Shown: positions 27,820-41,037 of the stretch, in pieces
How positions within the stretch are numbered: position 1 is the first letter of the stretch
Layout of the letters: each line of letters opens with the position of its first letter
NCBI RefSeq assembly: GCF_964204645.1
Contig: NC_134026.1
Span: 26,198,150-26,262,149 of the forward strand
Origin: Tubulanus polymorphus
Lineage: Eukaryota > Animalia > Nemertea
Length of the DNA: 64,000 nucleotides
Direction: 5' to 3'
The notes under the pieces: model-generated
Database searches by the model: none
What the model was told of the DNA's origin: nothing
Seen by the model: only the letters and a program-made list of their open reading frames with translations
Made by a program: the position numbers and the translations under genes

Positions 27820-28078
<259 letters not shown>

Positions 28079-28580
28079 TTTATGTGTATATACATATACA
28101 TTTTAAAGCAATTTTCTTGAAATTCTGCGGATTCTAACCGCGCATAGTTAGGACGTTTACACATGCACGAATGATGAGCACGCTAGAGAAAATCATGCGA
28201 AGTCATAATTTCCATTAATGCGTCTCTGCGGTTATCGCCTCACAGACGGCCATTTATAGCGTGCTGTAACTCGATTTAAATATGCATTGCATCCGCTAAT
28301 GTCGAATATTCTAGGCAACCATGATGTTCAATCATTACAATCCATATCTCTGATACCAGACTTGTAGTGATCTGAAAGACCAATGCCTAATACATATATA
28401 ATCAAAGAGACCAAGATTCCTTCATAATGGCTATCATACAACATCGGTCAACAACGATGCATTTGAAATCGCAATCAGTGCTGATGTATTATCATAACTT
28501 TTTTTAAGGTATATTAGTGACATCCAATGGAAATGGCCAGATGAGTTATATCGTGATCCAAATCTGTAGTAATTTGAGCA

Positions 28581-34813: not shown

Positions 34814-34888
34814 TTGGCGAAACCATTCATAGCCAATCACCGTTCTAGTTTTGTTAGCGCCAAATTTGTGCGGTTAATATTGCGGGAA
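34814..34888. promoter_or_regulatory. E2F/CCAAT S-phase promoter of RRM2 (region shared with divergent STPG1)
   Basis: CCAAT 34833-34837, GCGCCAAA 34857-34864 (TTTGGCGC on the minus strand), GCGGGAA 34882-34888, TTGGCGAAA 34814. Confidence 0.65.
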
Positions 34889-34973
34889 CAATGAGAGGAG
34901 CGCATTACCAAACCTGACGCTCAACCTGCCTGGTGTGAATTTTGTTCGACTCGCAAAAACTATTACTTACAAG

Positions 34974-36938
<1,965 letters not shown>

Positions 36939-37038
36939 ATGTTGAACTGGCTTCATTTATTTGTGATTCCTTTCTATGAAAGGCAGACTCAAAAAGTTGA
37001 TCTCGTCAGTGTGGTGCAATTATCCAAATTGTGGCGGC

Positions 37039-37136
37039 TGTCCTTATAAGGACAAGTTGGCTTATATTTATTTAAGTTGTTTTAAACTGCCCTTCTGAGG
37101 GCAAATTTTATTTTTGTTACTGTCCTTCTGAGGACA
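37039..37136 (+). promoter_or_regulatory. Three 6-bp-stem/4-nt-loop hairpins resembling the histone mRNA stem-loop, in the RRM2 3'UTR
   Basis: TGTCCT-TATA-AGGACA 37039-37054; TGCCCT-TCTG-AGGGCA 37088-37103; TGTCCT-TCTG-AGGACA 37121-37136. AATAAA at 37365-37370. Confidence 0.6.
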
Positions 37137-37755
37137 TTTCACTAACATAATTTATGAATGAACCAAAGCTTTTAATATAATGGAGGTGTCTGAGTAAGTA
37201 CTCCACTGCGAGGATTTAAAATAATTACTGTGTATTGAATACTCTTAAGCATTTTGTGTATGTATTTGTAAGTTTTAGCCATTTTATCAGTGAATATGTA
37301 TTTTAATCTTCAAATGTGTGCAGCATTGGTGTATGTTTTATGTTCATGTCTGTAGTTGGATATTAATAAATATCTTGGCATTTTTAAGGTTCTAATACTC
37401 AAGCTACATGTCTTGTCTGATTTGTTTACGAGGATTTGGATTGTGCATTCTCCTTTTCCATTGTAAAAGACCATAAATTATTGTCTTACAGGTTTTACTT
37501 TGATCCTTACAATGGTCCCTTCAATCTTGTATCAAATTTTGTTGGTCTCTGAACTTGTTTCCACGAGGAAGTATGTATTCGGGGTAAATTCTACATCAAA
37601 TGGGCTAGAATCTTCTCCAGAACTTCAAGTTATAAGTATATGCCTTAAATGAGCTCTGTTTTAAGGATTGCCAGGGATCTGGTAGTAATGGAGTATTTAT
37701 CATGATTTAAGTCCACAGATTGAGAGCTGTAGGTGATAAATAGAGACCTATTGCA

Positions 37756-37986
37756 CAAGGTCCGATATAAGAATGAAAGCCACTTGCCCGGGGCATACAT
37801 ATCTGAAATTTTGCTTGCCCTACAAAGGCAGTCTAATAGGTGGCACATTCATCCGTGGTATCGAGTGGGACTGTTTTGTGACAATAAGTTGCACCAGCCC
37901 CGTGGACAAGTGATAATGATAACATACTTGCCCTGATGAGAAAAACTTGTCCTGGGCAATCGGACAAGTGCTTAGGTCAGACCCTG
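37756..37986. mobile_element. Degenerate hAT-like MITE between the RRM2 and RNF144 3' ends
   Basis: Imperfect TIRs CAAGGTCCGATATAAG / CTTAGGTCAGACCCTG (12/16); repeated ACTTGYCC / GGACAAGT subterminal motifs; flanks share TATTG (imperfect TSD). Confidence 0.55.

Positions 37987-39079: not shown

Positions 39080-41037
<1,958 letters not shown>

What the first reader, a model, noticed from the sequence alone, without database searches (positions are those of the whole stretch)
37039..37136. Three histone-stem-loop-like hairpins in the polyadenylated RRM2 3'UTR: possible SLBP-type co-regulation of dNTP supply and histones
Seen: within 100 nt there are three copies of UG(U/C)CCU-UNUN-AGG(A/G)CA, each a perfect 6-bp stem with a 4-nt loop. 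Stem position 3 covaries between copies (U-A versus C-G), loop positions 2 and 4 vary, and the spacers are unrelated U-rich sequence. This suggests selection on structure rather than simple duplication. Established: the replication-dependent histone stem-loop (GGYYCU-UUUN-AGRRCC) has this geometry, and SLBP recognition depends mainly on the second G-C pair, the top U-A pair and loop U1/U3. All are kept here; the bottom pair is U-A rather than G-C and the CCAAA/ACCCA flanks are missing. R2 is an S-phase gene and a classic masked maternal mRNA in clam oocytes. CPE-like UUUUAU/UUUUAAU (about 37106, 37169, 37300) and AAUAAA (37365) are also present. Inference: SLBP or an oocyte SLBP2-like protein (or ERI1) may couple R2 translation or decay to the histone mRNA programme.
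Basis: partly seen in the sequence, partly recalled or inferred. Interest (0 to 1): 0.82.

Follow-up and report, generated by a model that had tools for sequence, protein, structure and literature searches.

The report
Histone-like hairpin triplet in RRM2 tail

Summary
Observation confirmed. Three perfect 6-bp/4-nt hairpins (37039-54, 37088-103, 37121-136) lie 100-182 nt past the stop codon of RRM2 in a nemertean. They are inside the spliced message, which ends just after AAUAAA 37365 (3 runs, 2 studies). They are the only + strand matches in 64 kb, single-copy in the DNA run, and far beyond chance. Copies 2 and 3 match 14 of 16 positions of the published SLBP-site pattern and keep the key G-C pair, top U-A pair and loop U1/U3; about 0.1% of random hairpins of this shape do. 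They are not histone stem-loops: no Rfam Histone3 hit, bottom pair U-A, no AAA flank, no HDE-like match, not terminal. Canonical U7 cleavage or S-phase decay is therefore unlikely. The covariation is one event. Conservation is untested: none of 160 distant RNR2 loci has the motif, but none I placed was lophotrochozoan. Best reading (0.35): internal, weaker SLBP-family sites affecting R2 translation or storage. Rivals: another RNA-binding protein (0.28); duplicated or transposon-derived palindromes (0.25; a nearby MITE-like repeat holds a similar imperfect hairpin).

The parts
34904..37402 (+). RRM2 (ribonucleotide reductase small subunit) gene, 7 exons; ATG 34974, stop TAG 36936-36938
   Evidence: Spliced contigs in X2, X3, X4; PF00268; P0001, 409 aa
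36939..37402 (+). 3' UTR, about 440-460 nt, G+C 0.32
   Evidence: Contig ends at 37380, 37388, 37402; composition
37039..37054 (+). Hairpin 1, UGUCCU-UAUA-AGGACA; 13 of 16 positions fit the published SLBP-site pattern; a perfect 16-bp palindrome as DNA
37088..37103 (+). Hairpin 2, UGCCCU-UCUG-AGGGCA; 14 of 16 fit; the covarying copy; A at -2 to -4 and +1; the only copy formed in every fold
37121..37136 (+). Hairpin 3, UGUCCU-UCUG-AGGACA; 14 of 16 fit
37029..37117 (+). UUGU 3-7 nt upstream of each hairpin (37029, 37077, 37114); possibly part of the repeated unit
   Evidence: 3 of the 6 UUGU in the UTR; noticed after the fact, uncorrected p about 3e-4
37106..37341 (+). CPE-like U-rich words at 37106, 37170, 37282, 37301, 37336
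   Evidence: pattern match only
37365..37370 (+). Polyadenylation signal AAUAAA
   Evidence: spliced contigs end 10-32 nt later
37756..37986 (.). High-copy MITE-like repeat downstream of the mRNA end; holds an imperfect look-alike hairpin at 37816-37831 (rival origin, not part of the message)
   Evidence: summed depth up to 16,442 against 26 in X1; half-site cluster; alignment

Best explanation
[quoted passage not shown] Shown: sequence, position in the mature message, single-copy status, fit to the SLBP determinants. Inferred: that the hairpins fold in vivo (local folding or a bound protein would have to beat the copy 1/copy 3 cross-pairing), that three copies make up for the missing 5' adenines, and that the effect is on translation or oocyte storage rather than on 3' end formation. 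R2 is the subunit stored as untranslated mRNA in clam oocytes, so such a site would release dNTP supply together with histone synthesis after fertilisation or in S phase; this timing is not shown for this animal.
For: Copies 2 and 3 fit 14 of 16 positions of the SLBP-site pattern of PMC4604434 and deviate only at the bottom pair; copy 1 fits 13. All keep stem G2-C, the only base-specific SLBP contact (PMC10388802 passages), and loop U1 and U3, whose change lowers binding; loop-2 C binds like wild type. The differences between copies are one compensatory pair and loop positions 2 and 4, and none breaks any of the 18 pairs. Only 4 of 3,731 perfect 6/4 hairpins from shuffled UTRs, and only these 3 of 32 such + strand hairpins in the window, have the histone-like features. 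SLBP does recover a polyadenylated message with an internal stem-loop, H2AFX. Clam R2 is stored as untranslated maternal mRNA (PMC2114600 abstract); oocyte-specific SLBP2 is linked to histone mRNA storage in frog and fish (PMC6239174 passages).
Against: No Rfam Histone3 hit at E up to 10, while canonical-looking controls scored 23-28 bits in 4 of 5 loci. The minimal wild-type-affinity site needs two 5' adenines and one 3' adenine; all copies have C at -1, copy 1 has no A in the five upstream bases, and copy 3 has U at +1. The non-canonical bottom U-A pair is the same in all three copies, which suggests common descent or another reader. Human RIP and CLIP found no non-histone SLBP target. The global fold cross-pairs copies 1 and 3. 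None of 160 RNR2 loci (80 viral, 80 JGI) has the motif after the stop; among them two fish-like and several other probable animal transcripts, so the element is not pan-animal. Whether this species has a suitable SLBP paralogue was not tested.
Confidence: 0.35

Rival explanations
1. The hairpins are a selected, repeated RNA signal read by some other protein; the unit is UUGU-N3-7-C-hairpin and the histone likeness is coincidence or a vestige.
For: Features that SLBP would not select are the same in all copies: C at -1, bottom U-A pair, purine at loop 4, upstream UUGU. All differences keep pairing. [quoted passage not shown]
Against: It does not explain why G2, the pyrimidine run, the top U-A pair and loop U1/U3 all match, a combination seen in 4 of 3,731 random hairpins. 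No Rfam family reaches its gathering score. No candidate protein was identified.
Confidence: 0.28
2. The hairpins are unselected leftovers: short local duplications of one palindrome, or decayed sub-terminal palindromes of a MITE-like transposon, with symmetry kept by template switching.
For: The only other cluster of TGYCC/GGRCA half-sites in the 64 kb is a high-copy MITE-like repeat about 620 nt downstream. Its minus strand aligns to hairpin 2 and flanks at 19 of 23 positions; the best local score of 24 was reached by 13 of 500 shuffles (chosen after the fact). The covariation is one event (p about 0.2). No conservation was found. No variant lies in the hairpins, but only 0.3 were expected.
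Against: At 80% likeness only one DNA contig covers the hairpins, so they are not a recognisable repeat copy. The spacers differ in length and sequence while the 16-mers differ by 2-4 letters and break no pair; neutral decay would be expected to hit the stems. The window's MITE copy has no perfect hairpin of this kind.
Confidence: 0.25
3. The motif works as DNA: three everted AGGRCA half-site pairs forming a 3' enhancer for a dimeric transcription factor.
For: The sequence is palindromic, copy 1 perfectly so. AGGRCA resembles nuclear-receptor half-sites (recalled, not from a call).
Against: The spacer and flanks are strand-asymmetric: U at loop 1 and 3, C at -1 and UUGU only on the sense strand. 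All copies lie within the transcribed UTR.
Confidence: 0.06
4. The hairpins are LIN-41/TRIM71 elements read in a shifted three-nucleotide-loop register (U-A closure, purine at loop position III).
For: Loop position 4 is a purine in all copies and a U-A closure of a tri-loop can be drawn; such elements occur in clusters (PMC5908797 passages).
Against: LIN-41 needs exactly three loop nucleotides and four-nucleotide loops were not enriched. The tri-loop closing pair has probability 0.001 against 0.85 for the tetraloop closure.
Confidence: 0.02
5. The hairpins are true histone-type 3' ends: an alternative non-polyadenylated R2 message is cut by U7 after one of them and degraded at the end of S phase.
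For: Geometry and core positions match. H2AFX has such a double end. Contigs drop minor isoforms, so a short form is not excluded.
Against: No match to the purine-rich HDE-like words searched in the UTR (words recalled). The spliced contigs run through to the poly(A) signal. The distance from the stop is 100-182 nt against 25-60 nt (bioRxiv 10.64898/2026.10.14.759114 passages). The gene has six introns.
Confidence: 0.03

Closest known systems
Replication-dependent histone mRNA 3' stem-loop (Rfam RF00032 Histone3) bound by SLBP and 3'hExo/ERI1
   Same: 6-bp stem, 4-nt loop, G-C at stem position 2, pyrimidine/purine arms with a variable third pair, top U-A pair, U at loop 1 and 3; UCUN loops occur in three human histone genes
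   Different: Three copies; internal; 100-182 nt from the stop; bottom pair U-A; no CCAAA or ACCCA flanks; no HDE-like match; intron-containing non-histone gene with a poly(A) signal; no Rfam hit
Polyadenylated H2AFX mRNA with an internal stem-loop recovered with SLBP (PMC4604434, passages read)
   Same: A stem-loop inside the 3' UTR of a polyadenylated message
   Different: H2AFX is a histone gene with one canonical stem-loop plus HDE and a short S-phase form; here a non-histone gene has three non-canonical copies
Masked maternal R2 mRNA of clam oocytes (PMC2114600 abstract; PMC2113603 search listing)
   Same: Same gene; CPE-like U-rich words and AAUAAA in the UTR
   Different: The clam UTR sequence and its masking element could not be read here, so whether it has these hairpins is unknown; oocyte storage is not shown for this species
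Clustered protein-bound UTR hairpins (LIN-41/TRIM71 elements, PMC5908797 passages; iron-responsive elements of transferrin receptor mRNA, recalled)
   Same: Several short hairpins of one design in one UTR, spaced by unrelated sequence
   Different: Loop length and sequence do not fit either element

Membership tests
Histone 3' stem-loop (RF00032) | 6-bp stem with 4-nt loop | tested here: met
   in the global fold only copy 2 is formed
Histone 3' stem-loop (RF00032) | G-C at stem position 2, top U-A pair, U at loop 1 and 3 | tested here: met
   all three copies (determinants)
Histone 3' stem-loop (RF00032) | Full 16-nt pattern including bottom G-C pair | tested here: not met
   13, 14 and 14 of 16; positions 1 and 16 fail in all
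Histone 3' stem-loop (RF00032) | Two adenines 5' of the stem and one 3' | tested here: not met
   5' flanks GCGGC, UAAAC, GUUAC; only copy 2 comes close
Histone 3' stem-loop (RF00032) | Score against the Rfam model | tested here: not met
   no Histone3 row at E up to 10 in 4,001 nt or in 76 nt holding copies 2 and 3; controls hit in 4 of 5 loci, below the gathering score of 34
Histone 3' stem-loop (RF00032) | At the mRNA 3' end, 25-60 nt from the stop, followed by an HDE | tested here: not met
   100-182 nt from the stop, 229-311 nt before AAUAAA; contigs run through; no HDE-like word; a minor short isoform is not excluded
SLBP target | Binds SLBP | not testable with these tools
   needs gel shift or CLIP
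SLBP target | SLBP or oocyte SLBP2-like gene in this genome | not tested
   no genome held and no SLBP sequence among the session's proteins
Conserved RRM2 UTR element | Present in orthologous UTRs of relatives with covariation | tested here: inconclusive
   0 of 160 loci; none of the 41 JGI loci put in the tree fell among lophotrochozoans; the one close relative's contig stops about 46 nt after the stop
LIN-41/TRIM71 element | Three-nucleotide loop closed by U-A | tested here: not met
   probability 0.001 (definition)
Dispersed repeat copy | Other genomic copies of the stretch | tested here: not met
   one DNA contig at 80% likeness; isolated 16-mers elsewhere would not be seen by this test

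The most novel reading that the evidence does not exclude
An SLBP-family protein binds three internal, non-canonical stem-loops in a spliced, polyadenylated non-histone message, RRM2, and so puts the rate-limiting subunit for dNTP synthesis under the same translational or maternal-storage control as histones. The cross-pairing of copies 1 and 3 could act as a switch that exposes one or three sites.
Probability: 0.3. Interest if true: 0.82.

Novelty: new variant of a known kind. Interest (0 to 1): 0.5.

Why it matters
SLBP is described as binding histone messages only (PMC4604434). A non-histone, polyadenylated target that is also the DNA-precursor enzyme stored as masked maternal mRNA in clams would give a direct post-transcriptional link between nucleotide supply and histone supply, and a defined, testable element in a classic masked message. 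If another protein reads the hairpins, it is an undescribed UTR element. If they are transposon or duplication leftovers, it is a curiosity.

Tried and rejected
No genome is held for this window, so no genome-wide motif scan or SLBP search was possible. No holder of the sequence was on record as RNA; the RNA nature of X2-X4 rests on the spliced joints. X5 and X6 do not cover the hairpins and X7, a relative differing at 42 of 296 laid coding letters, stops about 46 nt after the stop. A doublet-motif scan of viral contigs gave 8 loci; those inspected were phage or giant-virus tandem repeats or lone matches, none behind an RNR gene. RNR2 relatives: 80 viral loci and 80 JGI loci (the scan read 17 of 64 parts): CCT-N4-AGG occurs after the stop in 3 of 160, each with a 3-bp stem, and a relaxed histone-like pattern in 0 of 160; 63 of the 80 JGI loci have 200 nt or more after the stop. 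A quick tree of 41 of these 80 with 44 reference proteins placed none among lophotrochozoans (careful search unfinished, many open forks); of 21 loci that I treated as probably animal, 10 have 200 nt or more. A scan for MITE relatives in viral contigs gave 7 loci matching only the short end motif. A strict histone-consensus scan gave 0 loci. Literature: the five literal motif spellings occur in 0 papers; searches showed no paper on such hairpins in RRM2 (titles and abstract starts seen); passages of 10.64898/2026.08.17.745202, PMC10284499 and PMC2323027 and a term search of PMC12153100 added nothing; the clam masking-element paper was not held. Earlier findings of this scan hold no look-alike. 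LIN-41 and canonical U7 readings were tested and given low odds.

Full report
Observation. They are the only exact + strand matches in the 64 kb; allowing two mismatches gives 7 matches (six are these hairpins on both strands) against 1.3 expected, and 0 of 100 shuffles reach 7. In 20,000 dinucleotide shuffles of the 451-nt UTR, 14 had three or more perfect 6-bp/4-nt hairpins of any sequence. The region 37020-37160 folds with z = -3.8.

Gene and message. The upstream gene is the ribonucleotide reductase small chain (PF00268 in 3 of 4 exon translations; best solved relatives are mouse and human R2). Exon 3 is 100% identical to P0001, which NCBI names as a Tubulanus polymorphus (ribbon worm) protein, and the tree groups it with Lineus. 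Contigs of runs X2, X3 and X4 (two studies) skip six GT..AG introns and continue without a break through the hairpins to 37380, 37402 and 37388, 10-32 nt after AAUAAA 37365, while the DNA-like run X1 goes on. The hairpins are therefore in the mature 3' UTR, 100, 149 and 182 nt after the stop and 311, 262 and 229 nt before the poly(A) signal. Three variants lie in the UTR and none in the hairpins, but only 0.3 were expected there. At 80% likeness a single X1 contig covers the region.

Folding. Each hairpin folds on its own (-7 to -9.6 kcal/mol with 5-nt flanks). Because copies 1 and 3 have identical arms, the global optimum pairs them with each other around copy 2; the three-hairpin form is 2.3-2.5 kcal/mol higher. 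With pairing span limited to 80 nt all three form, with inner pairs at 0.92-0.99. Copy 2, the one with the C-G change, is formed in every model. So co-transcriptional folding or a bound protein is needed for three sites. This counts against the simplest picture and may also be a switch.

Fit to the SLBP site. Against the pattern used by Brooks et al. (PMC4604434, passages) the copies score 13, 14 and 14 of 16; the bottom pair fails in all, and loop 2 fails in copy 1. G2 is the only base-specific SLBP contact (PMC10388802, passages). Loop U1 and U3 matter for binding, while loop-2 C binds SLBP like wild type and lowers 3'hExo binding. Only 4 of 3,731 random perfect hairpins from the shuffled UTR carry G2, three pyrimidines, the top U and both loop uridines, so even one founding copy is an unlikely chance match, before allowing for the number of windows screened. 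Against this, the minimal high-affinity site needs 5' adenines, which only copy 2 partly has; Rfam Histone3 gives no row at E up to 10 while controls with the canonical core score 23-28 bits; the position does not fit a histone end (25-60 nt from the stop and terminal; bioRxiv 10.64898/2026.10.14.759114, passages); no HDE-like word was found; and human RIP and CLIP found only histone targets, including polyadenylated H2AFX with its internal stem-loop. The element works, if at all, like an SLBP site; it is not a member of the histone stem-loop family.

Selection. The stronger argument is that all differences between copies leave all 18 pairs intact while spacers differ in length and sequence. 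Each copy also has C at -1 and UUGU 3-7 nt upstream (noticed after the fact), which may be the remains of a duplicated unit or part of a composite site.

Conservation. Not established. None of 80 viral and 80 JGI RNR2 loci has the motif after the stop. The JGI scan read 17 of 64 parts, 63 of 80 loci have 200 nt or more downstream, and none of the 41 put in a quick tree grouped with lophotrochozoans; two grouped with fish. The motif is thus not universal in animals, and nothing can be said about spiralians. The one close relative in reach (X7) stops about 46 nt after the stop.

Transposon rival. The only other cluster of the same half-sites in the window is a high-copy repeat at 37756-37986, beyond the mRNA end. 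It has inverted ends and possibly a decayed 8-bp target duplication, which would make it a hAT-like MITE (my reading; the classification rule is recalled). Its minus strand aligns to hairpin 2 and flanks at 19 of 23 positions, and 13 of 500 shuffles reach the best score. This is weak and was found after the fact, but it offers a source of such palindromes; an exapted origin would be compatible with function. The family consensus could not be built.

Mechanism. I commit to internal, weaker SLBP-family docking sites acting on translation or storage (0.35). Shown: sequence, location in the message, single copy, fit to the known determinants. Inferred: folding in vivo, binding, and effect. Context from print: clam oocytes store R2 as untranslated mRNA (PMC2114600, abstract); frog and fish have an oocyte SLBP2 linked to histone mRNA storage (PMC6239174, passages); C. 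elegans oocytes use a non-SLBP complex on the histone stem-loop region (PMC12803260, abstract). None of this was shown for this animal. Rivals: another protein (0.28), unselected duplication or transposon remnants (0.25), DNA element (0.06), true histone-type end (0.03), LIN-41 (0.02; tri-loop probability 0.001).

Novelty. I found no description of such hairpins in RRM2 (listings only, and the library lacks most subscription papers, including the clam masking-element work; no supplements were read). Unchecked notes of this scan report canonical stem-loop plus HDE behind non-histone genes in molluscs and annelids; they raise the plausibility that spiralians use SLBP more widely but were not tested and are not support. 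Verdict: real, non-random, in the message, suggestive of SLBP-type recognition, untested for conservation and binding. New variant of a known kind; interest 0.5.

Noticed in passing
window 37756-37986: High-copy MITE-like repeat with inverted ends and internal ACTTGYCC/GGRCAAGT sub-repeats; also present in contigs of the spliced runs; only one copy in the window.
   Followed up: partly
window 37034-37141: Copies 1 and 3 can cross-pair into a longer helix enclosing copy 2, about 2.4 kcal/mol more stable than three hairpins; a possible conformational switch.
   Followed up: partly
window 34833-34864: CCAAT (34833) and an E2F-like GCGCCAAA (34857) lie just upstream of the transcript start, in keeping with an S-phase promoter although NCBI labels the protein 'M2 B-like' (motif meaning recalled).
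   Followed up: no
P0001 N-terminus (window 34974-35394): The protein has DEN where vertebrate R2 has a KEN box (recalled), as do the Urechis and Lingula proteins, and an RxxL motif follows; cell-cycle destruction may differ.
   Followed up: no
L002 1498-1543 (-), L004 1498-1557, L005 1498-1555: Viral contigs carry short tandem repeats whose unit closely resembles the histone stem-loop core.
   Followed up: no
L169-L173, about 499-545: Histone3-like hairpins (23-28 bits in 4 of 5, below the gathering score) in viral contigs with no histone gene evident upstream; used only as controls.
   Followed up: partly
window 27825-28100 and 39650-40126: Long (TA)n microsatellites; the second lies inside a gene with a RING/IBR-like cysteine pattern on the minus strand.
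   Followed up: no
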